Shown piece after piece: positions 23,279 to 39,650 of a stretch of DNA of 64,000 nt. Origin of the DNA: Candidatus Shapirobacteria bacterium (GTDB lineage: Bacteria; Patescibacteriota; Microgenomatia; UM-FILTER-40-11); NCBI GenBank assembly GCA_020059745.1, contig JAGVBK010000003.1, positions 1,123 through 65,122 of the forward strand, written 5' to 3'. The notes under the pieces were generated by a model. The model searched no databases, was not told the origin of the DNA, and saw nothing but the letters and a program-made list of their open reading frames with translations. Positions within the stretch are counted from its first letter, which is position 1; each line of letters starts with the position of its first letter. The position numbers were made by a program, and so were the translations under genes.

Positions 23279-24477
23279 AGCAGAAGATATTACTGATTCT
23301 TTTTTTTATTTTTCTCCAGATTTTTAGTTTCAGGATTGGAGTTTTTGCGGCCGAATGTACGACTCCAAGAGAGGGAGCTACCAGAGAGGAGCTTGAGGAT
23401 ATTATTCGTGCCTGTGAAGCCCAGATAGGCGAAACCAAAAAACAAGTAGACAGCCTTTCCAGAGAAATTGGCATTATTGACGGCCAAATCAGGGTAGCCC
23501 AGCTTAAAATTTCCCAAACAGAATACCAAATAAGAACGCTTGAGGAAGAAATAGTTAATCTTTCCGGAAAAATTGAGAGACTTGACGGTTCGCTTGACTA
23601 TCTTTCCAGAGTTCTTTTAGACCGGGTGGCCGAATCTTACAAAAGAAACAAAGTTGATGCCATAACCATCCTTTTTTCTTCAAGGAATGTTTCTGATTTT
23701 GTTGCCCGCTACCGGTATTTGCAAAAAATCCAGCTTCATGACCGGGAACTTCTTTTGTCAATGGAACAAACAAGGACCAGCTATGACGAGCAAAAAAGCC
23801 TGAAAGAGCAAAAGCAGGAAGAGCTGGAAAAGCTGCAAGCCCAGCTTTTGACGCAAAAAAAGCAGCTTGATATTCAAGTGGCAAACAGGAAAAGAATCCT
23901 TGAGGAAACCAGAGGAAAGGAAGCAGTTTACCAGCAATTTCTTGCTAGCGCCAAAGGAGAACTAGAGGCCATCCTGGGAATTTTGGAGGGCAAGGGAAGA
24001 GAAGAAAGAATAAAAGATGTTTCCGAAGGCGAAAAAATTGCCTCAGTTATTTACGGAGCCTCATGTAATTCAAATGGTACACACCTTCATTTTATGATCA
24101 CTAAAGACGGCAAGCCCTTAAACCCTTTTAGCTATCTTAAGGGAGGTATTAATTATGAAAACTGTTCCGGTTCTTCCTGCGGCAGCGCGGACGCTGATCC
24201 TTTTAATCCGCAAGGTGATTGGGGCTGGCCTTTAAATGAAAAAATCAGGCTCACTCAAGGTTACGGTTATACCTGGGCAATTCAACACATTCCCTGGTTA
24301 AGGGCAATTTATACTTTTCATAATGGTATTGATTTGCAGGGAGGAAGCTTAGATGTTAGAGCAACAAAAAAAGGTGCTCTTTATTGGGGAAGTTATGTGG
24401 GAAGGTGCACTTTAAAGTATGTTAAAGTGGAGCATGAAGACGGCTTCAGTTCCTACTATCTTCATGTAAACTACTGA
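23275..24477 (+). CDS. Coiled-coil M23-family peptidase (EnvC-like FtsEX partner)
   Basis: 400 aa with a signal peptide, a ~250-aa coiled coil, and a C-terminal M23/LytM-like domain with HxH (GTHLHFMITKDGKPLNPF). Gene order ftsE-ftsX-envC is conserved. Confidence 0.7.
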   Translation: MKQKILLILFFIFLQIFSFRIGVFAAECTTPREGATREELEDIIRACEAQIGETKKQVDSLSREIGIIDGQIRVAQLKISQTEYQIRTLEEEIVNLSGKIERLDGSLDYLSRVLLDRVAESYKRNKVDAITILFSSRNVSDFVARYRYLQKIQLHDRELLLSMEQTRTSYDEQKSLKEQKQEELEKLQAQLLTQKKQLDIQVANRKRILEETRGKEAVYQQFLASAKGELEAILGILEGKGREERIKDVSEGEKIASVIYGASCNSNGTHLHFMITKDGKPLNPFSYLKGGINYENCSGSSCGSADADPFNPQGDWGWPLNEKIRLTQGYGYTWAIQHIPWLRAIYTFHNGIDLQGGSLDVRATKKGALYWGSYVGRCTLKYVKVEHEDGFSSYYLHVNY

Positions 24478-25338
24478 TGAGCAGATTTTTAAATAAACTA
24501 CCTTTTTTAGTTTTTTTTCAACTCCTGTTCCTCTTTTCTTTAGCAAAAACTTCCTATGCTCAGGTAGTGATTAATGAATTTGTTTTTGATCCGACAAATG
24601 ACCAAAACGAGTGGGTGGAATTATATAATATGGGTACAGAGACAGTTAATCTTCAAGGTTGGCAAATTTCCGATAAGCTTAGTTCTCCCCATGTTCACTC
24701 TCTTGATAGTCTCGGCTCCATTCCTTCTGATGGGTTTGTAGTTTTTGAATACCAATCTGGAGACGGTTGGCTTAATAATGATGCCGATACGGTTATTCTT
24801 AGGGATAAACGAGGGTAATATCTTGGATGAAAAAGAGTATTCCTCAAATCCGGGAGAAGGAAAATCTTACGGTAGAAGCCCAAATGGTACAGGAGGTTTT
24901 ATTGTTTATGATGCTGCTTCGGTTTCAAAAGGTGTGGTAAACCCTACTCCTACAGAAGTTCCTACCCCCACCCCAACTCCCCAGCCAACGGAGGTTCCGA
25001 CTGAAGCACCAGAGCCAACAGCAACCCCAACCCCTGAGCCGACTTTAACCCCTACTCCCACGACAAAGCCGACAACTAAGCCTTCACCGACTCCAACACC
25101 AGATAAAGAACCGGAAATGGTAACTACCAGCTTCGACGGACCTCAGGGCGAAGTTTTGGGTAGCGAGTCCTCTCCAACAGGACCAGACGAACTCGAAGAC
25201 ATAAAAGCTCTTTATTCCCCTCCGGAAAAGAAAAAATCAATTCTTCTTCCGATTTTTTTAATCGGTGGCGGCGGAGTATCTATTTTCTTTTCAGTTCTTT
25301 CTTTTCTTAAAAAGGAAGAAGGTGAGGAAGTTGCTTAA
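24477..25338 (+). pseudogene. Lamin-tail-domain (LTD) surface protein with Pro/Thr-rich stalk and C-terminal TM anchor, interrupted by a 1-nt frameshift
   Basis: Frame A (24477..24818) holds the signal peptide plus the LTD N-half (VVINEFVFDPTNDQNEWVELYNMGTETVNLQGWQISD...DTVILRD). The +1 frame continues from ~24802 ([27 protein letters not shown]), then [25 protein letters not shown]..., then a TM ([23 protein letters not shown]). The junction is in the A-run gggataaacgagg. Confidence 0.6.
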
Positions 25339-28105: not shown

Positions 28106-28732
28106 ATGATCCATCTTCCTGCAAAAAAAATTGTTAATGTCTTTTCTTTGTTAATTATTTTTTTAGGAATTGGAATTTTGCTTCTTACTTTTGGCAGCCC
28201 TCTTTTTTATGAAGTTCAATATCAGGCAAAAACCATTGCCAAGCCTGGAGCGCAAGAACAAAAGAATAAAGAGATAGTTCCTGTGAATGCAGACTTTTCA
28301 ATTGTAATTCCTAAAATTAACGCTAATGCTCCGATTTTTCCCAACGTTAACCCTTTTGAAGAAAAAGAATTTTCTCCAGTTTTAAAAAAGGGAGTTGCCC
28401 ATGCCAAAGGAACTTCTTTTCCCGGCAACAACAAAAACATTTATCTTTTTGCCCATTCAACTGATGTTTTTTTTAATGTCGGCCGATATAATGCCGTTTT
28501 TTATCTTATTGGAAAACTTGAAAACGGAGATGAAATCGACATTTATTATAGGGAGGGACTTTTTAAATATAAGGTGTTTGAGAAAAAGATTGTTTCTCCG
28601 GAAGCAGTAAATTATCTGGAAATCGGAGATGAAGAAATACTTACTCTTCAGACTTGTTATCCTCCGGGAACAACTCTCAAAAGGCTGGTAGTAAGAGCCA
28701 GTCCCTCGGAAGCACTAAATTCAAAATACTAA
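28106..28732 (+). CDS. Sortase (transpeptidase) family protein
   Basis: 208 aa with an N-terminal TM anchor. It has a His-containing motif (LFAHSTD), the signature TLQTC catalytic Cys motif and a downstream Arg (LKRLVVRA). Confidence 0.8.
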   Translation: MIHLPAKKIVNVFSLLIIFLGIGILLLTFGSPLFYEVQYQAKTIAKPGAQEQKNKEIVPVNADFSIVIPKINANAPIFPNVNPFEEKEFSPVLKKGVAHAKGTSFPGNNKNIYLFAHSTDVFFNVGRYNAVFYLIGKLENGDEIDIYYREGLFKYKVFEKKIVSPEAVNYLEIGDEEILTLQTCYPPGTTLKRLVVRASPSEALNSKY

Positions 28733-29234: not shown

Positions 29235-32200
29235 ATGAATAAAATTAAGTTTCTTCAAAAAATATTTTCCCTAATCACTTCTTTTAGCTTGCTTATTCAG
29301 TCATCTTTTGGATTTTTAACAACCTACAATTTTGCTTATGCCCAGGAAGAACCAACCCCGACTCCTGAAGTTACGGTTACGGTTGTTCCTCCCCAAGAAG
29401 AACCTACCCCAGAACCAACAATAGTAGTGACAGAAATACCTTTGCCAGAACCAACAGAAACGCCAACTGTAACAACAAATGTAACAGAGCCGGAAACCAC
29501 TCCAACACCTACCCCAGCAGAAACACTTCAGCCTGATTTAAACGAGCCTGAAATAAACGAGCCAAGTGCAGCTCTTAACCCTTCTATTTCAACAGATAAA
29601 GATGATTACCCCCCTACAGGAACAGTAGTTCTTACCGGAAAAGATTTTCCGGCAAACACGGAATTAAGAATTAAGGTAACTTGGCCGGATGGGCAGGTAA
29701 GAAGCGCTTCAGGCGAAATAGGCCAGACAGATACAGCAAAAACAGACGATCAAGGGAACCTTACTTTCTTTTATCCCCTAAGAGGAGAAGGACAGGAAGG
29801 GGAATACCTAGTTGAAATTATTAATGGTGAAACAGTTTTAGCAATTACAAATTTTACAGATCAACATCCCGAGCAGTCTTCGCCAATTGTACTTAATGAA
29901 ATTTTACCTGATCCAATGGGGAATGTTGGAGCGCAAGAGGCAGATGAATTTATTGAAATATACAACAAAGGAACTGAGGTAATCGATCTTTCGGGTTTTA
30001 CCCTGACCGATACCCAGGGCGCAAATCCGTCTCCATTTTCGCTTTCCGGCACGATAGGGGCTGGAGGTTTTATTTCTTATCCTAAAACTGTTTCCCAAAT
30101 AACTCTTAATAACGACGGGGATACTGTGCAGCTTCTTTATAATAGTGTGGTAGTTGATTCGTATAGTTATACTTCTTCGTCAATTACTGAAGGCCGCAGT
30201 TACGGACGGTGTGGTGACGGAGAGGATAATTGGGTTGAGTTGGCGAACCTAACTCCAGGAAGCGCTAATGACTGCTCTTCGCTAGACGATAATCAGACTT
30301 TATCTCAAGAGGTTTGTCCTGAAGGTGAGGGCGGTTGGGTAAAGGTGGATGGTCTAAGTAGTTTATATTATTTTTACACGGCCCCAACAGGCAAACTTGT
30401 ATCTAATACTTGCTACAAAGCAGGAAATACTGTTGTTTATGGGGAAATTACTCCTCCTGCTTCTCCAGTTACAGTTTCCTCAACTGTTTTTAACCAAGAT
30501 GGTTGCACGGAAATTGGTTCGGGATGTAATTATCAGAATTTGTCTCATGCATCTTTTAAGCTTGTTGACGAACCTCTCCCTGATCCGTATTTTAATCTGG
30601 CTGTATGCTATGAAGGTTCTCTTGGTACCCAAGCAACAGAAGCAAGATTTGGGTATTTGGCAAGAGATCTTTCTCTTGAATCAGTAGTGGAAAGAAATAC
30701 ATTGACTAACGGGGGTTCCCTGCCGCAAGGAATTCCTTTAGGTCAGAATTCTGAAAGAGTATGGTCTACAAACACTTACGTATTGAATTCAAACAATTAT
30801 GTTTGGACAGTAAAAATTAACGGAAAACAAAAAACTGCAACAATTGATAAGTTGGGAGGTAAAAATAGTATTGTTACTGAGCAAAACCAATGTCCATTAC
30901 CTGAACCGGTTTGCGGTAATGGAATCTTGGAAGGAGACGAAGAATGTGATGATGGAAATACACTAGATGGTGATAATTGCAATTCCAATTGCCAGTGGGA
31001 ATTAATATGTGATCCTGAAAAAGAACTTGCCATTAACGGTGGGTTTGAAACACCGGTTGTTGGTTCTCAAAAATGGGATATTTTTGAATCAGGAACTTCA
31101 GGCCTTAGTTGGACGGTAAACTGGCGCGAAAGTTTTGGTAACTACAGAGGTTGGGAACTTCCTGATCCAGCTCATCTTGAGCTACATAGGAGTGTTAATG
31201 GATGGTTGCCAAGAGAAGGATCACAGCATGCGGAACTTGATTCAGATTGGAATGATCACTCAGGGAATCTTAATAACGAACCAGCCTCAACGGTCATTTA
31301 TCAAGATATTCCTACAATTCCAGGCAATCAATACACAATTAAGTTTTACTTTTCCCCAAGGCCAAATACACCTCAGACAGACAATGTTCTTGAGTTTAGT
31401 TGGGGGGGAGAAGTTAAGGAAACTATTTCCAGGGCAGGGGGTAGTAATACAGACTGGTCAGAGCATACTTATACTTTTACAGCAACAACAACACCAACAA
31501 GACTTCAATTTAAAGATTTGGGAACGGCAAATTCTTTAGGTACGCTGATTGATGGAGTAAGTGTTCGCTGTCTTGGTCCGGAAAAAGGTTCATTAACAAT
31601 TTGTAAATATAATGATTTAAACAAAGACGCACAAATAACTGAAGGTGAGCCAAAAATTTGGTGGGAAATGACAGTTGTTGATATGGATGGAGCAGATGCA
31701 GGGGAAACCTGGAATAAAGCTACTCCGGCAAATGACTGTTTAACACTTGAAGGGATGGATTTTGGGGAATACGAAGTAACTGAAACTGAAACGTCGGGGT
31801 GGACTCGATCTTATCCTACGGATAGTAATTCTCAAACAGCAGTCTTAAACGTAAGCAATTCGGATGTGATCGTGAATTTTCTAAACTATGAAACACCTCC
31901 GGTTTGTGGAGACGGAGTGATTAATCAAGATTCTGAAGAATGTGACGGAGATGATTTGGGAGATGCTGATTCGGAGAGTAATTTTTGCACCACTGAATGT
32001 AAACTAGTCCCTGTTTATTATGGCGGTAATTCTTGCCCTCCTGAGTATCCGGTTCCAAAGCTTCTTGGGACATACACTGTTTCCAGTACGGATGCTGATG
32101 GGATTTTGGTTCCGGTAACCACGGGAGGAAGATATCTCTTTGAGGCTCTAGGGACTTATCGCCCGACCCAAAGAGATGCTGTGCCGGCAATGTGGTTTGC

Positions 32201-35200
32201 CGATGCCGGTTATTCAACTGATAATAATTGGGACTCATTAAAAACTCAATATGGGATTGGGGGGAGTGGTATTGACAAGGGAGCACATGCGCTTTTGGGA
32301 AACTTGGGTAGCGGAGTGGGGATTGTCGAATGGGGGGATTACAACCAAGATCACGAATATCGTTTTTATCATGAACCAACTCTTTCTTCTTTGCAATTTG
32401 TTATTGGTGACCGTTGGGACTCTTGGTATGGGACAAAATGGGATAACCAGGAGGGAATGTATGATAACAGCGGAGAACTGACTTTAAAATTATATGAGTG
32501 CCTTCCTCAAAAACCTCAATATCTTTGTGACGATACAATTTATACTGCCAATAATCAGAGCAGCTTAACCTGGCTTGACAGCAGCAATGGCAGCACCCAT
32601 GAACTTACTACTATGAATTTTGGTTCTTCGGCCAGTGCAGACGACCCCTTTATGCATATAACTTATTATGTAAATAGATATGGAAACAGTGATGAGTTAG
32701 CTTACTACGACCATGATAGTGATACTCATACTACGGTTGGCAATTTGAATGTTTCATCATTCTTCACAAAACTTGCTTTTGACATTTATGGGAGGTTATA
32801 CGGTCTTACCGATGAACACTCTTTATACCTAATAGATAAAGAAAACGCCTCGGTTGAGAAAAAGGGAGTTATAAGCGGAATTAACAGTGGCGGCGACATA
32901 ATTTTTGATGAAAATAACGATTTATATCTCATTGGAACAAACGGATGGCTCTACACTATTGATCTTTCGACTCTAGTTGCTAGCTTAGTTAAAAAAACAG
33001 GACTAAGCAGCGTAACAGGGATTGCTTACAGGCAGGGGGTCTTTTATGTATCCACTGTAAATAGCGGAAAGTCCAATATTTACACTATGGATAAGTTAGG
33101 TAACGCTTCGGGCCCTCTCAATCAGGAACCGGTTGACCCCATTAATGACCTTAGCTCATGTCTTCCGGGAACCCCGCCTATTTGCGGCGATGGGGTGGTC
33201 AATCAAGCTTCAGAGCAATGTGACGGCGTAGAGGGGACAGCGGGTGATGGCAGTAATTTCTGTACTGATACTTGTAAGTTGATTCCGGTTTATTCAGGAG
33301 ACAATACTTGTCCTGATGGAAAAGTAAAGGCTGCTTCTCCTGTTTTTTCCCAATTTGTGAATGTTAGTCCCACAGCAAGTGAATACATGGTTGTTAATGG
33401 TTTAACAGAAGGAGAAGATTATCTTGTTGAAGTTTCAGGAAAGTATCAATTTGATCCTGGTGTTGCGACCAAATGGGCAGACGCAGCTTATGCCTCTTAT
33501 GCGGCGGATGGAGCAGGTTCACTTCCATGGAACTTCAGAACTGATTTAGGAATTCATCCAACAACAGGTAAAGACGCGGTGGGCAATTATAAAAGCAGGG
33601 GAATTACTTCTTTACTTTCCGACTTGGGAACTGGAGTTATGGGAGTGGTTGATTGGGGAGATTTCGATGAAGGTCATAATTATTCGTTCCTTTATAAGGC
33701 ACTTGCAAGTTCTCCAAAGTTTATTGTTTCTGAATGGTATGGGGATTGGTATAAAACAAGCCAGAGTAATTTTAATACCTTTAATAATCTTGGCAGTTTG
33801 AATCTTGAAGTTTATGAATGTGTGGAGCCGGGCATAATTAAAGGAACTAAGTATCTTGACGAAAACGCTAATGGTATTCATGATTATAATCTTTCTTTAT
33901 CCGATGTTTACGAAAGTCAGCTCCTGAATGGGTGGAAAATTAGGCTTTATGATTCTGGCTGGAACAAGATTGACGAAACTGAAACGGCGAATTTAGGAAA
34001 TAAAGGCCAGTATATATTTAACAATGTCGTCCCCGGAACCTATTATGTTTGCGAGGTAATGGAGAATGGTTGGGAACAAACAGGACCGAACGAGGGAGAT
34101 GGAAGTATAAACAATAATTGGCAGCAGACTGGCAATGGATTGGCGGTAGAGAATGAATCTCCTAATAAAGAGGAAGAAGGTTCAGTTTGTTGGAAAGCTG
34201 ATGTTGAGCCGGGCGAAGAAGATAAATGGCTTAAGTTTGGCAATACGCAATATGGTTCAATTTTGGGGGTTAAATGGGAAGATGTTAATGGAGATGGAGA
34301 CCGAGACGAAGGTGAGGATGGGCTTTCCGGTTGGACAATTCAATTAAAACAAGGAGAAAATACTATTGAAACCACTACTGGCGAAGGCGGAGTCTATTCT
34401 TTTGAGAATGTAATTTCCGGAGAATATGAAGTTTGTGAAGTCATGAAAGATGGTTGGGAAAACACTGCTGGCGGGGTTTGCCGGGAAATAACTTTATCTG
34501 CTGGCGAAGATAAGTCTGGCGTTGATTTTGGGAACTTTGAGCTCGGAAGAATTTTTGGTTACAAGTACAACGATATTAATGATGACAGCAACTTAGATGT
34601 TGGCGAGACCGGGGTTAACGGCTGGCAGATTTGCATTGAGAAACAGGAGGATCAGTTTTCACTACCTGATTTAGCAGCTGAGGTTGCTTCAGAAAATGAT
34701 GAAGGAAATTGTGTTTATACTGATGAAACTGGTTATTACGAATTTACGGGATTAACTGCCGGTATATATACTATTATTGAAGAAGACAGAAGCAGCGAAG
34801 GCTGGAGAGCAAGCAACCCTGAATCGGGAAAATATGAAGGAATTGAAATTCTCTCAGGAACAGGCTACGGTGAAGAAAGCAATTATGACTTTTATAATGC
34901 TCCTCCGCCCAGCATTCTTTTAAATAAAAGCAATAACAATTCTTCAGCCGGAGTTGGAGATACCGTAGGTTACATTTTAACCATTACAGTTGGCGAAAGA
35001 ACTCTTTCAGATATGACTTTGGTTGATAATCTTCCTGAAGGTTTTACCTATCAGGCTGGATCTTCCAAAATTAACGGGAATTCGGTTGAGCCGGCAATTT
35101 CCAATGAGGATAAAACATTAACCTGGACTTGGGGAGAAGTTTTAGCAGGGTCTGTGATAGTTGTAACTTATGATATTAAGATTGAGCCTTCAAACCAGCC

Positions 35201-35462
35201 TGCAGCTTATACAAACTATGCTCAGGTATCCGGGCACGGGTCTCCTACGGTAGTAACCAGCGATATTGTTCAATCAGAAGTTTGGATTGGCAATGTTTAT
35301 GCCTATAATGGCACGGTCGGAGGCCAGGTTTTAGGAACAAGCACAGGCCAGGTTTTAGGCGCTTCCACTTTGCCTGCAGCCGGTTCTGAGACTTGGTATT
35401 TACTGGCAGCCTTTAGCTTAATCGGAACAGGCCTTTTTATTAGAAAAAAGTATTTACATTAA
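29235..35462 (+). CDS. Giant (2075 aa) multidomain cell-wall-anchored adhesin, a probable sortase substrate
   Basis: Signal peptide and PT-rich linker, then an LTD (IVLNEILPDPMGNVGAQEADEFIEIYNKGTEVIDLSGFTLTD...GDTVQLLYNS). Three Myxococcus-type Cys-rich repeats follow (CGNGILEGDEECDDGN.., CGDGVINQDSEECDG..FCTTECK, CGDGVVNQASEQCDG..FCTDTCK). Next come two homologous ~210-aa domains ending LxLYEC, a beta-propeller-like segment, three SdrD/Cna-B-type repeats (GWE..G) and DUF11. The C-terminal sorting signal is LPAAG plus a hydrophobic helix and RKKYLH. Confidence 0.8.
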   Translation: MNKIKFLQKIFSLITSFSLLIQSSFGFLTTYNFAYAQEEPTPTPEVTVTVVPPQEEPTPEPTIVVTEIPLPEPTETPTVTTNVTEPETTPTPTPAETLQPDLNEPEINEPSAALNPSISTDKDDYPPTGTVVLTGKDFPANTELRIKVTWPDGQVRSASGEIGQTDTAKTDDQGNLTFFYPLRGEGQEGEYLVEIINGETVLAITNFTDQHPEQSSPIVLNEILPDPMGNVGAQEADEFIEIYNKGTEVIDLSGFTLTDTQGANPSPFSLSGTIGAGGFISYPKTVSQITLNNDGDTVQLLYNSVVVDSYSYTSSSITEGRSYGRCGDGEDNWVELANLTPGSANDCSSLDDNQTLSQEVCPEGEGGWVKVDGLSSLYYFYTAPTGKLVSNTCYKAGNTVVYGEITPPASPVTVSSTVFNQDGCTEIGSGCNYQNLSHASFKLVDEPLPDPYFNLAVCYEGSLGTQATEARFGYLARDLSLESVVERNTLTNGGSLPQGIPLGQNSERVWSTNTYVLNSNNYVWTVKINGKQKTATIDKLGGKNSIVTEQNQCPLPEPVCGNGILEGDEECDDGNTLDGDNCNSNCQWELICDPEKELAINGGFETPVVGSQKWDIFESGTSGLSWTVNWRESFGNYRGWELPDPAHLELHRSVNGWLPREGSQHAELDSDWNDHSGNLNNEPASTVIYQDIPTIPGNQYTIKFYFSPRPNTPQTDNVLEFSWGGEVKETISRAGGSNTDWSEHTYTFTATTTPTRLQFKDLGTANSLGTLIDGVSVRCLGPEKGSLTICKYNDLNKDAQITEGEPKIWWEMTVVDMDGADAGETWNKATPANDCLTLEGMDFGEYEVTETETSGWTRSYPTDSNSQTAVLNVSNSDVIVNFLNYETPPVCGDGVINQDSEECDGDDLGDADSESNFCTTECKLVPVYYGGNSCPPEYPVPKLLGTYTVSSTDADGILVPVTTGGRYLFEALGTYRPTQRDAVPAMWFADAGYSTDNNWDSLKTQYGIGGSGIDKGAHALLGNLGSGVGIVEWGDYNQDHEYRFYHEPTLSSLQFVIGDRWDSWYGTKWDNQEGMYDNSGELTLKLYECLPQKPQYLCDDTIYTANNQSSLTWLDSSNGSTHELTTMNFGSSASADDPFMHITYYVNRYGNSDELAYYDHDSDTHTTVGNLNVSSFFTKLAFDIYGRLYGLTDEHSLYLIDKENASVEKKGVISGINSGGDIIFDENNDLYLIGTNGWLYTIDLSTLVASLVKKTGLSSVTGIAYRQGVFYVSTVNSGKSNIYTMDKLGNASGPLNQEPVDPINDLSSCLPGTPPICGDGVVNQASEQCDGVEGTAGDGSNFCTDTCKLIPVYSGDNTCPDGKVKAASPVFSQFVNVSPTASEYMVVNGLTEGEDYLVEVSGKYQFDPGVATKWADAAYASYAADGAGSLPWNFRTDLGIHPTTGKDAVGNYKSRGITSLLSDLGTGVMGVVDWGDFDEGHNYSFLYKALASSPKFIVSEWYGDWYKTSQSNFNTFNNLGSLNLEVYECVEPGIIKGTKYLDENANGIHDYNLSLSDVYESQLLNGWKIRLYDSGWNKIDETETANLGNKGQYIFNNVVPGTYYVCEVMENGWEQTGPNEGDGSINNNWQQTGNGLAVENESPNKEEEGSVCWKADVEPGEEDKWLKFGNTQYGSILGVKWEDVNGDGDRDEGEDGLSGWTIQLKQGENTIETTTGEGGVYSFENVISGEYEVCEVMKDGWENTAGGVCREITLSAGEDKSGVDFGNFELGRIFGYKYNDINDDSNLDVGETGVNGWQICIEKQEDQFSLPDLAAEVASENDEGNCVYTDETGYYEFTGLTAGIYTIIEEDRSSEGWRASNPESGKYEGIEILSGTGYGEESNYDFYNAPPPSILLNKSNNNSSAGVGDTVGYILTITVGERTLSDMTLVDNLPEGFTYQAGSSKINGNSVEPAISNEDKTLTWTWGEVLAGSVIVVTYDIKIEPSNQPAAYTNYAQVSGHGSPTVVTSDIVQSEVWIGNVYAYNGTVGGQVLGTSTGQVLGASTLPAAGSETWYLLAAFSLIGTGLFIRKKYLH

Positions 35463-35463
35463 A

Positions 35464-36426
35464 ATGAAAAAAATATTTTTAACAATTTTATTTTTAATTA
35501 GCCTCTGCTTTTTTTCAGTAAACAAGGCTTTTGCCGGGGATTTAGTACTTTCTTTATCAAAACTGCCTGATTATAGGAAGGGTTCTTCTTTCCGGCTTTA
35601 TTACACCTATTTTGAAACTGACGGAAAGACTGCAACAGTTAATCTTTTTATCCAAAAGGACGGCAAAGATTGGAGGCAGACAAACCAAAAAGACAAGACT
35701 ACTGTTTCAGGATACTTTGAAGTGGGCGGCTCTGATTTTTATGACGGTGAAGGAAAGTATCACTTTTATGCAACTGCAAAAACTGACGAAGACACAGTTA
35801 CCAGCGAAACTGTCAGCACTATTCTTGATTCAACTTCGCCGGGAAAAGTGACTGATTACAATAAAGAAAGGCTTAATGCGGCTAGCTTCAGATTAAAGTG
35901 GAAAAATCCTGAAGATTCCGATCTTGACCGGGTTCATATTTACCGTTCAAAAGAAAGAAGCTTTACTGCTGATTCAGGAACTAGGGTAGCGGTAATGCAT
36001 GGTGCTCCCGGGGAAAAGATGATTTGGGAAAATGGTGTTCCTGAAAACGATATTGAATTTTACTATGCTTTTATTGCCTTTGACCACGCCGGCAATCATT
36101 CAGAAATTGTGACTGATGCTCCGGGAGAAGTGACCCCTGGCGCTGTTTTAGGCACACAAACCGAGCTTGGCACAGGAGGGCCTTTAACTTATGATGAAGA
36201 AACAGTAACTTTGCCAGAGGAAGAGGAGACTGAAACGGAAGAGGAAGAAGGACAATTGGGAGGAGGAATTTCCACTGAAGCGGGCGATGTAATGGGCGAC
36301 CAAACTGAGAAGAAATCAAAAACTCCTTACTTTCTTGCCGGTTTGGGAGCTTTGGCAGTGCTTGTTTTTTCCTACTTTAGATTTGTTAAAAGAAATAAAA
36401 GAAGGATAAAACCCAGCAAATGGTAA
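35464..36426 (+). CDS. Secreted, C-terminally membrane-anchored surface protein with Fn3-like domain and acidic stalk
   Basis: 320 aa. Signal peptide, a beta-rich domain, an Fn3-like segment (FRLKWKNPEDSDLDRVHIYRS), an acidic linker (LPEEEETETEEEEGQLGGG), and a C-terminal TM plus basic tail (RFVKRNKRRIKPSKW). There is no canonical LPxTG. Confidence 0.5.
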   Translation: MKKIFLTILFLISLCFFSVNKAFAGDLVLSLSKLPDYRKGSSFRLYYTYFETDGKTATVNLFIQKDGKDWRQTNQKDKTTVSGYFEVGGSDFYDGEGKYHFYATAKTDEDTVTSETVSTILDSTSPGKVTDYNKERLNAASFRLKWKNPEDSDLDRVHIYRSKERSFTADSGTRVAVMHGAPGEKMIWENGVPENDIEFYYAFIAFDHAGNHSEIVTDAPGEVTPGAVLGTQTELGTGGPLTYDEETVTLPEEEETETEEEEGQLGGGISTEAGDVMGDQTEKKSKTPYFLAGLGALAVLVFSYFRFVKRNKRRIKPSKW

Positions 36427-36455
36427 ATTTTTCGTACAAAGGATAACTAAAAAAA

Positions 36456-36478
36456 CTCACCGGTTTGGTGGGTTTTTT
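36456..36478 (+). terminator. Rho-independent terminator (CTCACC/GGTGGG stem, T6)
   Basis: Sequence actcaccggtttggtgggtttttt follows the 35464..36426 gene. The next gene has a strong RBS GGAGGTG. Confidence 0.55.
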
Positions 36479-36503
36479 CTTTTCTGGAAAGGAGGTGAGA
36501 TAA

Positions 36504-37070
36504 ATGAAAAGGATTTTAAGTAGCTTAATAATAATTGCCCTGCTTGCCTCTACCGCTGTTGGGGCAACCCAGGCTTTTTATCATGATGAGGTGGTTTTAG
36601 GAACTAATACTTTTGCTTTAGGTACAGTTGACTTGGAAAATGCTTGGACTAGCGGTTTTCCGTTTAGCTTAAATAATTTAGCCCCAGGGCAAGTCTCGTC
36701 AACTGGTGTTTTAGGTGTTGGCTATGGAGGCTCTCTTACGGCCGATCTTTATTTTGGAGTTAAGGCTGATACAGGGGAGAATCTAAAAGACTATTTAGAA
36801 TATTACATTGAGGAAGTGACAGCAGGAGGTACTCACATTAGGAATGTTTTTGGATGGAGGGATGTAAGCGATGCTTTTACCAACTGGAACTTGGTGGCAG
36901 ACAATGTCACCAAGAGTCAATGGAAATATTATAGGTTACATGTAAGAGTTAAGGATTCAGCTGATAATGGTACTCAAGGCATGTCTGCTACCAATTATGT
37001 AATAATTTATGCTGTTCAAGACGGGGGAACCGCTCCTGGTACAGCTCCATGGCAGTATCCAACTCCATGA
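36504..37070 (+). CDS. TasA/camelysin-like secreted protein with SipW-cognate-type signal peptide
   Basis: N-terminus MKRILSSLIIIALLASTAVGATQAFYHDEVVLGTNTFALGTVDLE fits the SipW-dependent signal-peptide pattern (h-region, then A-x-AFF/Y-x-D, N-T-F-x-A/L-G-T-l-D-L). The body is beta-rich and ~160 aa. Confidence 0.65.
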   Translation: MKRILSSLIIIALLASTAVGATQAFYHDEVVLGTNTFALGTVDLENAWTSGFPFSLNNLAPGQVSSTGVLGVGYGGSLTADLYFGVKADTGENLKDYLEYYIEEVTAGGTHIRNVFGWRDVSDAFTNWNLVADNVTKSQWKYYRLHVRVKDSADNGTQGMSATNYVIIYAVQDGGTAPGTAPWQYPTP

Positions 37071-37133
37071 AAATCTAATTTAGATTCTCAGGTCACCTAA
37101 GCTAGGCTTGGGTGACCAATAGAGGTTAAATAA

Positions 37134-37793
37134 ATGATTAAGACAAAAAAAGTTGGAAGAGTTCTTTATTGGTTTTTAATTGCTTTTCTGGCGCTTGTGG
37201 CTGGGGTGGTGGCGGTATCAATTTTAGACATTCCCGGAGGGATTAAGCTGTTTACGGTTCAGAGCGGGTCAATGTCTCCTAAAATCAGAGCCGGGAGTAT
37301 TGTTGTAGTTAAGCCTGCTGATCATTATCGTACGGGAGATGTAATCACCTTTAGGTCCGAACCTGAGAGGGAAGTCAAAATACCAAAGCTCACAATAACC
37401 CACAGAATTGATGAAGTGAAGTTAAAAGATGAAGGTCTTTTTTATCAAACAAAAGGGGATGCTAACCCAGACCCAGATGTTGACCTGGTTGCAGCAGACT
37501 TGGTTTTAGGCAGGGTCATTTTTTCTTTACCCCTAATTGGATATCCGGTTTCTTTTGCAAAAACGCAAGTTGGACTAATCGTTCTTATTATTGTTCCTGC
37601 GACAGTAATTATATATTCAGAACTTCTGACTATTAAAAACGAAGCAAAAAAACTCATAAAAGAAAGGAAAAGGAGAAAACTTTCCTCTCTCGAAAAAGCG
37701 GAGGTAACAATCGGGGAGGGAATGGTATCAGTAGAAGAAGGGCTCGAAAAAGTGGGGGAAGAAATTAAGGAAAAAATGTCAAATGAAGAATAG
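37134..37793 (+). CDS. Signal peptidase I, SipW/archaeal type (S26B)
   Basis: 219 aa with an N-terminal TM. Catalytic Ser motif SGSMSPKIRAGSIVVVK, His region ITHRIDEV, a second TM near the C-terminus, and a charged tail. Confidence 0.75.
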   Translation: MIKTKKVGRVLYWFLIAFLALVAGVVAVSILDIPGGIKLFTVQSGSMSPKIRAGSIVVVKPADHYRTGDVITFRSEPEREVKIPKLTITHRIDEVKLKDEGLFYQTKGDANPDPDVDLVAADLVLGRVIFSLPLIGYPVSFAKTQVGLIVLIIVPATVIIYSELLTIKNEAKKLIKERKRRKLSSLEKAEVTIGEGMVSVEEGLEKVGEEIKEKMSNEE

Positions 37794-38418
37794 ATTGCTA
37801 AAAGTCTTACTTTTAATTTTTTTAATTGGAATTACCAGAATTCAGGAAACAAATTCATATTATCTTGACACAATAATACTTTCAGACAACACGATATCGA
37901 CAGGTTGTTGGGAAGATGATGAGCCTGGGCTTGGAGATGTGGTTATAAATGAGGTTTATTATGATGTTAGAAATGACGACAGCAAGGGAACGGAAAATAA
38001 AAATGAGTGGATTGAGCTTTACAATAGTTTGGATTATTCAGTCAGCCTTAAAAACTGGACAATAACTGATGGTCAGGGAAATATTAAAACAGTTCATCTC
38101 GAGGTATCGATTCCGGCTAAGGGGTTCGCCGTTTTGTCCCATGACCATTCTACCTGGAGTTTATATTGGCCCCTTCCGGCCGAAACAGTCACAATACAGT
38201 TGGGTGGTTCTTTGGCTTGGTTAAATAATAGCGGAGATGCTCTTACCCTAAAAGATAGTAACGGCAATGAAATAGACCTGGTTTCTTGGAAAAACTTTAT
38301 TGATGGATGGAGTTTGAACGCAACAGAGGGTGAATCGATTGTTCGCAAAGAGAAGGGAAAGGACACAAACAGTCCAGACGACTGGGAGGTATCAAGTGAG
38401 CCTAACCCTGGAGCTTAA
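37783..38418 (+). CDS. Lamin-tail-domain (LTD) secreted protein with SipW-cognate-like signal peptide
   Basis: N-terminus MKNRLLKVLLLIFLIGITRIQETNSYYLDTIILSDNTISTG. LTD motif VVINEVYYDVRNDDSKGTENKNEWIELYNSLDYSVSLKNWTITDGQGN...GDALTLKDSNGNEIDLVSW. Confidence 0.65.
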   Translation: MKNRLLKVLLLIFLIGITRIQETNSYYLDTIILSDNTISTGCWEDDEPGLGDVVINEVYYDVRNDDSKGTENKNEWIELYNSLDYSVSLKNWTITDGQGNIKTVHLEVSIPAKGFAVLSHDHSTWSLYWPLPAETVTIQLGGSLAWLNNSGDALTLKDSNGNEIDLVSWKNFIDGWSLNATEGESIVRKEKGKDTNSPDDWEVSSEPNPGA

Positions 38419-38460: not shown

Positions 38461-39381
38461 ATGTCTGCCCTTTGGCATTTATTCTTACCTCATCACAAAA
38501 ACAATCACAAAGCTAACTTACTAAAGCCTTATTCAATTCTTTTAGTTTCCGTATTTTTTGTCTTTTTTCAGGTTTTTTTGAGCTTTTTTATGATGGCCAA
38601 TCCGGCGGTTTTGGGATATTCGGCCAATATTTCTCCTGAAAAAATAATTGAACTTACGAACCTGGAAAGAGCTGGTTTGGGCCTTTCTCCGCTTAAACAT
38701 AACGGCTTGCTTTCGGAGGCAGCCAGACAAAAGGCGGCTGACATGTTTGCCTTTAATTACTGGGCTCATGTTTCCCCTTCAGGAAGAACGCCCTGGTCTT
38801 TTTTCTCAGATGTAGGCTATAAATATCAATATGCGGGCGAAAACCTGGCCCGGGATTTTAGAGACCCTGATTCAGTAGTTCGGGCTTGGATGAACTCGCC
38901 TTCTCACCGGGAAAATATTGTCAATGGGAAATATTCGGAAATCGGGGTTGCGGTTGTAGACGGCAGCCTTCAAGGAGCGGAAACTACGCTGGTAGTCCAG
39001 CTTTTCGGCACTCCTTACGGTGCTTCTGTTCCAAAGGTTGAACAACAGCCTAAACCCGCAGAAAAACCGGCAAAGCAGCCTGAGGCTGTAGCTCAGAAGC
39101 CTGAGGAAGTTTCTGAATTAGAGCAAAGACCGGTTGCCTCAAAAGAGGTTTTATCTCAGGGAGAAAAGCTTAAGCTTTCTCCTGTTGCCAGCCCGCTTGA
39201 CCTTACTAAAGCCATGGTAATCTTTATTGTCGGCATTCTAATTGGCGCTTTTGCCGCTGATTTGATTCTTGTTTCCCATAATCACACTCCCAGGCTATCA
39301 AGCAGAAGCTTGGCACAAATGCTCTTCCTTTTCTTTGTTCTGGTTGCCACATTATTTATTAAGCAAGGAGCAATTTTATGA
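38461..39381 (+). CDS. CAP/SCP/PR-1 (YkwD-like) domain protein with N- and C-terminal TM helices
   Basis: CAP motifs (LTNLERAGLGLSPLKHNGLLSEAARQKAADM; YAGENLA; AWMNSPSHRENIVNGKYSEIGVAV). Also a Pro/Lys/Glu-rich linker and a C-terminal TM. Confidence 0.7.
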   Translation: MSALWHLFLPHHKNNHKANLLKPYSILLVSVFFVFFQVFLSFFMMANPAVLGYSANISPEKIIELTNLERAGLGLSPLKHNGLLSEAARQKAADMFAFNYWAHVSPSGRTPWSFFSDVGYKYQYAGENLARDFRDPDSVVRAWMNSPSHRENIVNGKYSEIGVAVVDGSLQGAETTLVVQLFGTPYGASVPKVEQQPKPAEKPAKQPEAVAQKPEEVSELEQRPVASKEVLSQGEKLKLSPVASPLDLTKAMVIFIVGILIGAFAADLILVSHNHTPRLSSRSLAQMLFLFFVLVATLFIKQGAIL

Positions 39382-39650
39382 AAAAACTTATTGCTGATAT
39401 GAGGGAGCACTCAAACCATTACCTGGTTTTAGTTTTTATCCTTGCTTTCGGCGCTTTGGCTTTTTTCTATTTTCAAAGAATACCCCAAGTTCAGATTCTT
39501 TCTGTTTTTATTACCGCAGTTTTTTATGTTGTTTGGGGGGTGGTCCACCATCACCTTGAGGGTGATCTTCATTTGAGGGTTGTTTTAGAGTATGCGGCGG
39601 TGGCTTTATTGGGTTTTTTAATTTTATTAACTCTAATTAAGAGGGTTTAG
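39378..39650 (+). CDS. Small membrane protein (2-3 TM)
   Basis: 90 aa, hydrophobic with an HHH cluster. Start overlaps the upstream stop (ATGA). Confidence 0.4.
   Translation: MKKLIADMREHSNHYLVLVFILAFGALAFFYFQRIPQVQILSVFITAVFYVVWGVVHHHLEGDLHLRVVLEYAAVALLGFLILLTLIKRV

What the first reader, a model, noticed from the sequence alone, without database searches (positions are those of the whole stretch)
36504..38418. TasA/camelysin-like protein, SipW-type signal peptidase and an LTD protein: a second, distinct surface-protein processing module
Two proteins flank a SipW/archaeal-type signal peptidase I. The TasA-like one begins ...ASTAVGATQAFYHDEVVLGTNTFALGTVDL and the LTD one begins ...ITRIQETNSYYLDTIILSDNTISTG. 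Both N-termini fit the SipW-cognate signal-peptide class (aromatic pair, Asp, then N-T-[FI]-x-x-G). In Bacillus the equivalent tapA-sipW-tasA unit builds extracellular fibres. Here the second cargo is a lamin-tail-domain protein, a pairing I have not seen described. It sits directly beside the sortase module, so two different secretion/anchoring chemistries are co-located.
Basis: partly seen in the sequence, partly recalled or inferred. Interest (0 to 1): 0.75.

Follow-up and report, generated by a model that had tools for sequence, protein, structure and literature searches.

The report
TasA-type fibre operon with LTD partner
This three-gene unit in a Candidate Phyla Radiation bacterium looks like a divergent version of the Bacillus tapA-sipW-tasA fibre operon, in which a small lamin-tail-domain protein takes the place of TapA; the arrangement recurs across this radiation but I found no paper describing it.

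Summary
Three co-oriented ORFs sit exactly at 36504-38418. They encode a 188-aa TasA/camelysin-like protein, a 219-aa ER/archaeal-type (SipW-type) signal peptidase I, and a 211-aa lamin-tail-domain (LTD) protein.

- **Peptidase:** it passes TIGR02228 and keeps the Ser/His/Asp residues.
- **188-aa protein:** it is below threshold for PF12389 and gives no TIGR04088 hit. Its relatives pass both models, its family profile aligns to B. subtilis TasA (97.8%), and its predicted fold is closest to TasA.
- **LTD protein:** it shares only its first ~49 residues with the TasA-like family, namely the signal peptide plus the segment that forms the donor strand in TasA. A disordered linker and a complete Ig-like LTD follow.
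- **Spread:** the order TasA-like, SipW, LTD recurs in at least 24 other loci from many CPR lineages. In five of them SipW and LTD are one ORF.
- **Hairpin:** a strong hairpin follows the TasA-like gene in all six loci checked.

Best reading: this is a TasA-superfamily donor-strand fibre module whose LTD protein is a TapA analogue (nucleator, cap or adhesin). This is inferred, not shown. I rate it a new variant of a known kind, of moderate interest. The sortase genes next door form a separate transcription unit.

The parts
36450..36478 (+). Terminator-like hairpin (13-pair stem followed by a T run) that closes the upstream 2075-aa/320-aa surface-protein unit.
   Evidence: scan; sequence. Folding the whole 36430-36503 spacer gave only z = -1.25.
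36490..36498 (+). Shine-Dalgarno-like AGGAGGTGA, 5 nt upstream of the ATG of the TasA-like gene.
   Evidence: Read directly from the sequence.
36504..37070 (+). 188-aa TasA/camelysin-superfamily protein, the predicted major fibre subunit. Residues 1-24 are the predicted signal peptide, with cleavage TQA|FY placed by alignment to TasA A27|A28. Residues 25-44 (FYHDEVVLGTNTFALGTVDL) correspond to the TasA donor strand. Residues ~53-172 form the jelly-roll core.
37091..37117 (+). 12-bp GC-rich stem-loop in the spacer after the TasA-like gene, with no U tract. Inferred to be an mRNA-stabilising or attenuating hairpin that sets a high major-to-minor gene expression ratio.
   Evidence: -25.9 kcal/mol, z = -5.6, 0 of 200 shuffles fold as well. 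Hairpins at the same position in L001, L002, L003, L006 and L028 give z = -4.7 to -5.2 with unrelated sequences.
37134..37793 (+). 219-aa ER/archaeal-type (SipW-type) signal peptidase I. It has TM1 (~9-34), a catalytic domain with invariant S46 (SGSM), H90 (THR), D109 (KGDAN) and D115, TM2 (~144-162), and a charged cytoplasmic tail.
   Evidence: (TIGR02228 108.1 bits against 51.85; NF046067 114.9 bits against 190), and (invariant columns in 23 homologues; hydropathy).
37783..38418 (+). 211-aa LTD protein, the predicted TapA-like minor subunit. Residues 1-25 are the signal peptide, with predicted cleavage TNS|YY. Residues 26-43 (YYLDTIILSDNTISTGCW) are the donor-strand-like motif. Residues 44-52 are a linker and residues 53-204 a complete Ig-like lamin-tail domain. 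The start overlaps the SipW stop by 11 nt, which suggests translational coupling.
38461..39381 (+). 306-aa membrane protein with a CAP/YkwD-like domain. It is a recurrent neighbour of the module, and its role is unknown.
   Evidence: Homologues lie in the SipW loci L003/L004, L008, L015, L016, L028 and L049.
28106..28732 (+). Sortase gene of the neighbouring, separate unit.
   Evidence: PF04203, 85.2 bits. A sortase also lies near the module in L017, L020, L028 and L049.
29235..35462 (+). 2075-aa surface protein (LTD, SdrD_B, SpaA and DUF11 domains) ending in LPAAG, a hydrophobic stretch and RKK. This is the likely sortase substrate and is not part of the SipW module.
   Evidence: (sequence).

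Best explanation
The region 36504-38418 is a three-gene operon for a TasA-superfamily extracellular fibre in a Candidatus Microgenomates (CPR) bacterium.

Proposed mechanism:
1. The 188-aa protein is exported by Sec.
2. The dedicated ER/archaeal-type signal peptidase (SipW-like, Ser46/His90) cleaves it after T-Q-A24.
3. It polymerises outside the cell by donor-strand exchange. Its new N-terminal strand (FYHDEVVLGTNTF...) completes the jelly-roll of the next subunit, as in B. subtilis TasA.
4. The 211-aa LTD protein is processed by the same peptidase, after T-N-S25.
5. That leaves a TasA-like N-terminal strand on a flexible linker in front of an already complete Ig-like lamin-tail domain. The protein can donate a strand but cannot accept one.
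6. It therefore acts like TapA, at one end of the fibre, as nucleator or cap. Its LTD serves as an anchoring or adhesive head.
7. A hairpin after the first gene keeps SipW and LTD expression low relative to the major subunit.

Shown here: the gene identities, the shared N-terminal homology, the predicted folds, the conserved synteny and the gene fusions.

Inferred: the cleavage positions, polymerisation, the TapA-like role of the LTD protein, and the function of the hairpin.
For: **Peptidase.** TIGR02228 scores 108 bits against a cutoff of 51.85. S46, H90, D109 and D115 are invariant in 23 homologues, and two TM segments flank the catalytic domain.

**188-aa protein.**
- Its family has 1513 representative relatives at E <= 1e-3.
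- 59 of 70 full-length relatives match PF12389.
- The positional orthologue in L002 scores 64.7 bits on PF12389.
- The family profile aligns to B. subtilis TasA residues 3-80 with 97.8% probability, E 1.1e-12.
- The AF2 core has block-mean pLDDT of about 73-92. TasA is the top Foldseek hit, and AbpA and CanA are also listed.

**LTD protein.**
- hhalign links only residues 1-49 to the TasA-like family (75.6%, E 2.4e-5).
- AF2 gives a signal helix at 2-18, a disordered stretch at 24-50, and a confident beta-sandwich at 53-204. The sandwich matches the lamin Ig folds.

**Literature.** The TasA donor strand is residues 28-38, directly after the SipW cleavage site. TapA has a similar N-terminus and a complete Ig fold, and can sit only at the filament start (PMC9674648, PMC10151520).

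**Comparative evidence.**
- The order TasA-like, SipW, LTD is found in 24 other loci, across Saccharibacteria, Kerfeld-, Vogel-, Chisholm-, Campbell- and Gottesmanbacteria, CPR3 and others.
- In L015, and more weakly in L021, the LTD-bearing protein has a TasA-like domain in front of the LTD. Some of these long proteins also carry CBM96.
- The SipW-LTD fusions keep a third hydrophobic segment and the AFFxD...N.F..G motif. In L001 a (TP)n linker follows the motif.
- The hairpin after the major-subunit gene is present in 6 of 6 loci tested.
Against: - The window's own 188-aa protein is below the PF12389 cutoff, and neither window protein registers on TIGR04088.
- Sequence similarity to TasA is confined to the first ~80 residues.
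- The donor-strand region has pLDDT below 50 in both models, so no structural evidence for strand exchange was obtained.
- The conserved motif could serve only as a SipW recognition element.
- No anchor (LPXTG or C-terminal TM) is present on either protein, so attachment of the fibre to the cell is unexplained.
- No expression or protein data exist for this organism.
Confidence: 0.58

Rival explanations
1. Two independent cargos. The TasA-like protein and the LTD protein are simply two separate secreted substrates of the same dedicated peptidase. The shared N-terminal motif is only a SipW recognition and cleavage determinant, and the LTD protein works as a free secreted or surface-binding protein with no physical link to a fibre.
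For: - TIGR04088 is defined as a signal-peptide class found on several unrelated protein families, and it hits orthologues of both proteins.
- The strict motif is tied to SipW adjacency, which a pure recognition role would also predict.
- No structural evidence for a complex was obtained.
Against: - In TasA the homologous segment is retained in the mature protein and is the donor strand (PMC9674648).
- In sister lineages the LTD is attached to a TasA-like domain in the same polypeptide (P0024 weakly).
- The motif is separated from the LTD by a disordered or (TP)n linker, as expected for a strand on a leash.
- The gene is translationally coupled to SipW and sits downstream of a conserved hairpin, as for a low-abundance accessory subunit.
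Confidence: 0.25
2. Peptidase accessory or membrane anchor. The LTD protein is not cleaved. It stays in the membrane through its N-terminal hydrophobic segment as a permanent partner of the signal peptidase, analogous to the accessory subunits of eukaryotic or archaeal SPase complexes, or as a membrane-tethered base for the fibre.
For: - SipW and LTD are one ORF in L001, L008, L009, L016 and L020.
- The two genes overlap in the window, L002 and L003.
- The window LTD signal has a short hydrophobic core and charged residues (R19, E22) before the putative site.
- Accessory modules fused to SPase I are reported in other TasA-superfamily loci (bioRxiv 10.64898/2026.01.04.697558).
Against: - Four of the five fusions retain the full TasA-type cleavage and donor motif right after the third hydrophobic segment, and L016 has a degenerate copy. 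This would be unnecessary for a permanent subunit.
- Orthologues pass the cleavable-signal model TIGR04088.
- In most loci the two genes are separate.
Confidence: 0.12
3. Protease. The 188-aa protein is a camelysin-type (Peptidase_M73) secreted metalloprotease rather than a structural fibre subunit.
For: The only Pfam match is to PF12389, 'Camelysin metallo-endopeptidase'.
Against: - The match covers only the signal and N-terminal strand region.
- No HExxH or other metalloprotease motif is present in the sequence.
- The experimentally solved members of this family (TasA, AbpA, CanA) are donor-strand fibres.
- The predicted fold is a jelly-roll with no protease-like neighbours.
Confidence: 0.03

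Closest known systems
Bacillus subtilis tapA-sipW-tasA operon (TasA fibres, TapA nucleator, SipW peptidase)
   Same: It has the same three functional classes in one operon:
- a jelly-roll subunit with a SipW-class signal followed by a donor strand;
- a dedicated ER/archaeal-type Ser/His signal peptidase;
- a minor protein with a TasA-like N-terminal strand in front of a complete Ig-like domain.
   Different: - The gene order is tasA-like, sipW, accessory, rather than tapA, sipW, tasA.
- The accessory domain is a lamin-tail domain with no similarity to TapA. TIGR04087 (the TapA/YqxM model, named from my own knowledge) is not among the hits; there was no NCBIfam hit at all.
- The major subunit is smaller (164 aa mature against ~234) and is alignable with TasA only over its first ~80 residues.
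- The peptidase fails the Bacillus SipW equivalog model (115 bits against a cutoff of 190).
- In some relatives the peptidase and the accessory protein are fused.
- The host is a CPR bacterium.
Archaeal TasA-superfamily filaments (AbpA/AbpB bundling pili, AbpX, Tafi, CanA)
   Same: - They are donor-strand-complemented jelly-roll filaments.
- Their loci often hold a TIGR02228-type SPase I plus accessory tip, adhesin or anchor proteins.
- AbpA and CanA appear among the fold neighbours of the 188-aa model.
   Different: - In sequence the 188-aa family is closer to bacterial TasA/camelysin (PF12389) than to AbpA or CanA.
- None of the described loci has an LTD accessory protein.
- The AbpX-associated peptidase has ten TM helices, whereas this one has two.
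Bacillus cereus CalY/camelysin with SipW
   Same: It is a PF12389 member next to SipW. From my memory of the CalY sequence, not tested here, its N-terminus (AYFSD...NTF..GTLDL) is almost identical to the consensus of the 188-aa family (ATVAYFSDTAV.G.NTFAMGTVDL).
   Different: - The B. cereus locus has two TasA paralogues and no TapA-like or LTD partner.
- The body of the window protein is not alignable by sequence with it.
Chaperone-usher pilus tip adhesins and terminators (FimH-type logic)
   Same: This is a functional analogy only. A minor subunit with one-sided donor or acceptor capability defines an end of a donor-strand fibre and carries a binding domain.
   Different: There is no homology, no usher or chaperone, and the envelope context is monoderm-like.

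Membership tests
TasA/camelysin family (Pfam PF12389 Peptidase_M73; TasA superfamily) | Scores at or above the Pfam gathering threshold on PF12389. | tested here: not met
   The window protein scores 17.9 bits against a cutoff of 22.5, over residues 2-64 only. However, 59 of 70 full-length relatives match at E <= 0.01 (best 6e-21), and the positional orthologue in L002 scores 64.7 bits.
TasA/camelysin family (Pfam PF12389 Peptidase_M73; TasA superfamily) | Profile-level homology to experimentally characterised TasA. | tested here: met
   hhalign of the 70-sequence family profile against B. subtilis TasA gives probability 97.8%, E 1.1e-12, over TasA residues 3-80.
TasA/camelysin family (Pfam PF12389 Peptidase_M73; TasA superfamily) | Jelly-roll beta-sandwich fold like TasA. 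| tested here: met
TasA/camelysin family (Pfam PF12389 Peptidase_M73; TasA superfamily) | Polymerises by N-terminal donor-strand exchange. | not testable with these tools
The N-terminal 52 residues have pLDDT below 50 in the monomer model.
SipW-cognate signal peptide class (TIGR04088) | Scores at or above the 19-bit cutoff on TIGR04088. | tested here: not met
   Neither window protein gives a hit, even at E <= 10. Orthologues of both pass (19.9-29.2 bits), and the TasA control scores 38 bits. By eye and by hhalign the motif is present but divergent.
ER/archaeal-type signal peptidase I (TIGR02228; SipW-type) | Scores at or above the TIGR02228 cutoff. | tested here: met
   108.1 bits against 51.85, covering residues 5-164 of the protein and positions 1-155 of 158 in the model.
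ER/archaeal-type signal peptidase I (TIGR02228; SipW-type) | Ser/His (plus Asp) catalytic residues rather than the Ser/Lys dyad of bacterial-type SPases. | tested here: met
   S46 (SGSMxP), H90 (THR), D109 (KGDAN) and D115 are invariant in 23 aligned homologues. Their assignment as catalytic residues rests on established knowledge of B. subtilis SipW (Ser47/His87/Asp106, from my own knowledge), not on a test here.
Bacillus SipW equivalog (NF046067) | Scores at or above the 190-bit equivalog cutoff. | tested here: not met
   114.9 bits. It is the same type of enzyme but not an orthologue under NCBI's equivalog rule.
TapA/YqxM (TasA anchoring/assembly protein) | Sequence homology to TapA. | tested here: not met
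   The LTD protein has no NCBIfam hit at all at E <= 1. I file it as a functional analogue only.
TapA/YqxM (TasA anchoring/assembly protein) | TasA-like N-terminal strand preceding a complete Ig-like domain, encoded together with sipW and tasA. | tested here: met
   hhalign matches residues 1-49 to the TasA-like family. AF2 shows residues 24-50 disordered and 53-204 as a confident beta-sandwich that matches the lamin Ig folds. The synteny is conserved.
TapA/YqxM (TasA anchoring/assembly protein) | Nucleates or accelerates polymerisation of the major subunit. | not testable with these tools
   This needs in vitro assembly assays or multimer modelling.
Lamin tail domain (PF00932) | Scores at or above the Pfam gathering threshold and has the Ig-like fold. 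| tested here: met
   70.8 bits against 34.3. Foldseek top hits are lamin A/C and B1 Ig folds, E 6e-6, TMt 0.67-0.74.
Sortase-anchored surface protein system (neighbouring unit) | The LTD or TasA-like protein carries an LPXTG-type sorting signal. | tested here: not met
   No sorting signal with a C-terminal hydrophobic segment occurs on any TasA-like or LTD protein in 25 loci. Isolated LPxxx matches have no hydrophobic segment after them. Only the 2075-aa neighbour ends in LPAAG, a TM segment and RKK.

The most novel reading that the evidence does not exclude
CPR/Patescibacteria widely encode an undescribed TasA-type donor-strand fibre. Its nucleator or tip is a lamin-tail-domain protein, in some lineages made as a self-processing SipW-LTD fusion and in others extended with carbohydrate-binding modules. 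This fibre would be a host- or surface-attachment organelle of these episymbiotic ultrasmall bacteria, distinct from their type IV pili.
Probability: 0.3. Interest if true: 0.7.

Novelty: new variant of a known kind. Interest (0 to 1): 0.5.

Why it matters
TasA-superfamily fibres are emerging as a cross-domain way to build extracellular matrix. So far the accessory nucleator has been characterised mainly in Bacillus (TapA) and proposed for a few archaea.

Here a different Ig-like domain (LTD) carries the same kind of N-terminal strand, across many CPR lineages. That suggests the rule 'donor strand plus any complete Ig-like head' is general for capping or nucleating these fibres.

It would also give the bacterial lamin-tail domain, whose role is unknown, a concrete context to test.

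For CPR bacteria, whose host attachment is so far attributed mainly to type IV pili, it points to a second candidate surface appendage.

The natural SipW-LTD fusions offer a simple self-processing assay.

Tried and rejected
- **PDB sequence searches.** The 188-aa protein and the peptidase gave only chance-level hits (LpmO10A at E 0.33; an antifreeze-protein repeat at E 0.08), so no solved close relative exists.
- **TIGR04088 on the two N-termini alone** at E <= 10 gave nothing.
- **Linked chimera for AF2.** I built mature 188-aa, a GS linker, then mature LTD, with an unpaired alignment, to test strand complementation.
- **Sortase link.** I looked for LPXTG or C-terminal TM anchors on all TasA-like and LTD proteins of the SipW loci and found none. 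The idea that the adjacent sortase anchors this fibre is therefore not supported.
- **Promoter scan.** Hits were no more frequent than in shuffles (12 against 7.7 +/- 2.9) and were not used.
- **Spacer after the LTD gene.** It has no significant structure (z = -0.08), so the 3' end of the operon is undefined and the CAP gene may be co-transcribed.
- **P0024 as a TasA-like plus LTD fusion.** hhalign probability is only 17.5%, so I treat it as suggestive only.
- **Literature.** 'SipW' with 'lamin tail domain' returned 0 papers. LTD with TasA, Patescibacteria or donor strand returned none. LTD with bacteria and signal peptidase returned only an unrelated Corynebacterium paper.
Full report
**What is there**

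The window comes from a Candidatus Microgenomates (CPR) contig. The best database match to the 188-aa protein is NCBI C4578_03260 from that organism.

Three co-oriented ORFs lie at exactly the reported coordinates: 36504-37070 (188 aa), 37134-37793 (219 aa) and 37783-38418 (211 aa).

The transcription-unit signals are these:
- A 13-pair hairpin followed by a T run (36450-36478) lies between the preceding 320-aa gene and the 188-aa gene.
- A strong AGGAGGTGA ribosome-binding site lies 5 nt upstream of the ATG at 36504.
- The second and third genes overlap by 11 nt.

The three genes therefore look like their own transcription unit, separate from the sortase (28106-28732) and the LPAAG-ending 2075-aa protein upstream.

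**The peptidase**

The 219-aa protein scores 108.1 bits on TIGR02228, the archaeal/ER-type signal peptidase I model (cutoff 51.85). It scores 114.9 bits on the Bacillus SipW equivalog model, below that model's 190-bit cutoff.

In an alignment of 23 homologues from related loci, S46 (SGSMxP), H90 (THR), D109 (KGDAN) and D115 are invariant. Two hydrophobic segments flank the catalytic domain.

This is the Ser/His type of enzyme to which SipW belongs. The catalytic assignment is by homology, from my own knowledge of B. subtilis SipW. I call it SipW-type rather than a SipW orthologue.

**The 188-aa protein**

On its own it is a weak match. PF12389 gives 17.9 bits (cutoff 22.5) over residues 2-64, and no NCBIfam model hits it.

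Its relatives settle the matter:
- Thirteen close homologues (52-63% identity) share the N-terminus ATVAYFSDTAV.G.NTFAMGTVDL.
- Two of them pass TIGR04088 at about 29 bits.
- A profile search of 1.84 billion representatives found 1513 relatives at E <= 1e-3.
- 59 of 70 full-length relatives match PF12389.
- The 70-sequence profile aligns to B. subtilis TasA residues 3-80 with 97.8% probability.

I conclude that it is a divergent TasA-superfamily jelly-roll protein. It has no HExxH motif, so the 'camelysin protease' label carries no weight.

**The LTD protein**

PF00932 scores 70.8 bits. AF2 (mean pLDDT 81.9) gives a signal helix at 2-18, a disordered stretch at 24-50, and a confident beta-sandwich at 53-204. 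The nearest solved structures to the sandwich are the lamin A/C and B1 Ig folds.

The TasA-like family profile matches only residues 1-49 of this protein (75.6%, E 2.4e-5). The LTD protein thus shares the signal peptide and the following strand motif with the fibre subunit, and nothing else.

Homologues at 40-46% identity pass TIGR04088. IMG names two of them 'predicted ribosomally synthesized peptide with SipW-like signal peptide', which I recall as the older name for TIGR04088.

**Where the motif sits**

TIGR04088 covers TasA residues 11-44. By my own knowledge, SipW cleaves TasA at A27|A28. The TasA donor strand is residues 28-38, with F29, I32 and F39 buried in the next subunits (PMC9674648).

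The hhalign register puts the equivalent cut at TQA24|F25 in the 188-aa protein. By motif alignment the cut in the LTD protein is at TNS25|Y26.

The conserved 'aromatic pair, Asp, N-T-[FI]-x-x-G' block is therefore mostly mature-side sequence. It corresponds to the strand that TasA donates.

TapA has a similar N-terminus ahead of a complete Ig fold. It donates that strand to TasA and can sit only at the start of a filament (PMC10151520, PMC9674648). The window's LTD protein has this same anatomy.

**Comparative evidence**

Look-ups of homologues and a scan of GTDB species representatives with the LTD alignment gave 84 loci. In 24 of them, besides the window, a SipW-type gene lies next to the LTD gene. 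The usual order is one or two TasA-like genes, then SipW, then the LTD protein.

These loci come from Saccharibacteria, Kerfeld-, Vogel-, Chisholm-, Campbell- and Gottesmanbacteria, CPR3 and other CPR groups.

Further findings from these loci:
- The strict N-terminal motif is found on 12 of 24 SipW-linked LTD ORFs but only 2 of 62 others (p = 1.2e-6).
- In L001, L008, L009, L016 and L020, SipW and LTD are a single ORF. The order is TM1, catalytic domain, TM2, a basic linker, a third hydrophobic segment, the AFFxD...N.F..G motif and then the LTD. In L001 a (TP)n linker separates the motif from the LTD, and in L016 the motif is degenerate.
- In L015 the LTD-bearing protein begins with a TasA-like domain (80.5%, 167 aligned columns). 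L021 gives a weaker match.
- L010 and L015 add a CBM96 carbohydrate-binding module.
- None of these proteins has a sortase signal or a C-terminal anchor.

**A conserved hairpin**

The spacer after the TasA-like gene folds into a 12-bp GC-rich stem (37091-37117) with no U tract. The fold is -25.9 kcal/mol, z = -5.6, and 0 of 200 shuffles fold as well.

The corresponding spacers in L001, L002, L003, L006 and L028 each fold into an equally strong stem (z = -4.7 to -5.2). Their sequences are unrelated.

A hairpin conserved in position but not in sequence, placed after the major-subunit gene, fits a mechanism that keeps downstream SipW and LTD expression low. TasA:TapA is reported at about 100:1 in Bacillus (PMC10151520). 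This function is inferred.

**Interpretation**

The best-supported reading is a TasA-superfamily donor-strand fibre operon with three parts:
- a major subunit;
- a dedicated SipW-type peptidase;
- an LTD protein that supplies a strand but cannot accept one, and so nucleates or caps the fibre while presenting an Ig-like head.

I am about 85% confident in the gene identities and in both proteins being SipW substrates. I am about 50% confident in the TapA-like role.

The rivals are these:
- The two proteins are independent cargos (0.25).
- The LTD protein is an uncleaved peptidase partner or membrane tether, which the fusions suggest but the retained motif argues against (0.12).
- The 188-aa protein is a protease (0.03).

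**Neighbours**

A CAP/YkwD-like membrane protein (38461-39381) recurs beside the module in six other distinct SipW loci (L003/L004 being the same locus). A 90-aa protein (39378-39650) recurs in L028 and L049. A sortase recurs in four loci.

The sortase association may reflect a general cell-surface gene neighbourhood. It is confounded by taxonomy, because the loci without SipW are mostly not from CPR bacteria.

**Novelty**

PF12389 homologues were already noted in Patescibacteria (PMC9245690). TasA-superfamily loci with SPase I and accessory tip or anchor proteins have been described.

I found no paper that links a lamin-tail domain to SipW or TasA, or that describes SipW-LTD fusions. I therefore rate this as a new variant of a known kind, of moderate interest. 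Cheap decisive tests exist: multimer modelling, co-expression with N-terminal mapping, and EM.

Noticed in passing
window 24477-24818 and 24745-25338 (+): A 113-aa ORF carries a lamin tail domain that stops at profile position 99 of 109 (59 bits). It overlaps the next ORF (197 aa, no Pfam hit). This may be a third LTD gene split by a frameshift or an assembly error. With the 2075-aa protein and the 211-aa protein, that makes three LTD-bearing genes within 14 kb.
   Followed up: partly
L001 632-1894; L008 4425-5702; L009 4362-5699; L016 4305-5636; L020 4335-5648: These are natural single-ORF fusions of the SipW-type peptidase with the LTD protein. They keep a third hydrophobic segment and the TasA-type motif at the junction, which suggests self-processing precursors.
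   Followed up: partly
window 37091-37117; also L001 572-634, L002 5350-5417, L003 4225-4297, L006 4353-4432, L028 4212-4269: A strong GC-rich stem-loop without a U tract lies in the spacer after the TasA-like gene in all six loci examined (z = -4.7 to -5.6). The sequences are unrelated.
   Followed up: yes
window 38461-39381 and 39378-39650 (+): A CAP/YkwD-like membrane protein and a 90-aa DUF5656-like protein follow the module. The same pair follows it in L028 and L049, and the CAP protein alone lies near it in L003, L008, L015 and L016. Its function is unknown.
   Followed up: partly
L010 3741-5957; L015 3825-6032: In some CPR lineages the SipW-adjacent LTD protein is about 735 aa and includes a CBM96 carbohydrate-binding module between the N-terminal TasA-like region and the LTD. 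This hints at glycan binding by the accessory subunit.
   Followed up: partly
window 29235-35462 and 35464-36426 (+): The 2075-aa protein (LTD, DUF4215, DUF642, SpaA, SdrD_B, DUF11) ends in LPAAG, a hydrophobic stretch and RKK, so it is a likely sortase substrate. The next gene (320 aa, signal peptide plus C-terminal TM) starts 2 nt after its stop.
   Followed up: partly
window 36504-37070: The NCBI record holds this protein only as a 120-aa 'partial' entry (P0001, 100% identity over 63% of the query), although the ORF is intact in the window.
   Followed up: no
L011, L049, L072 and other loci: Several loci with the CPR-type module, or close LTD relatives of it, come from MAGs labelled Gammaproteobacteria. 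These may be mis-binned CPR contigs or horizontal transfers.
   Followed up: no
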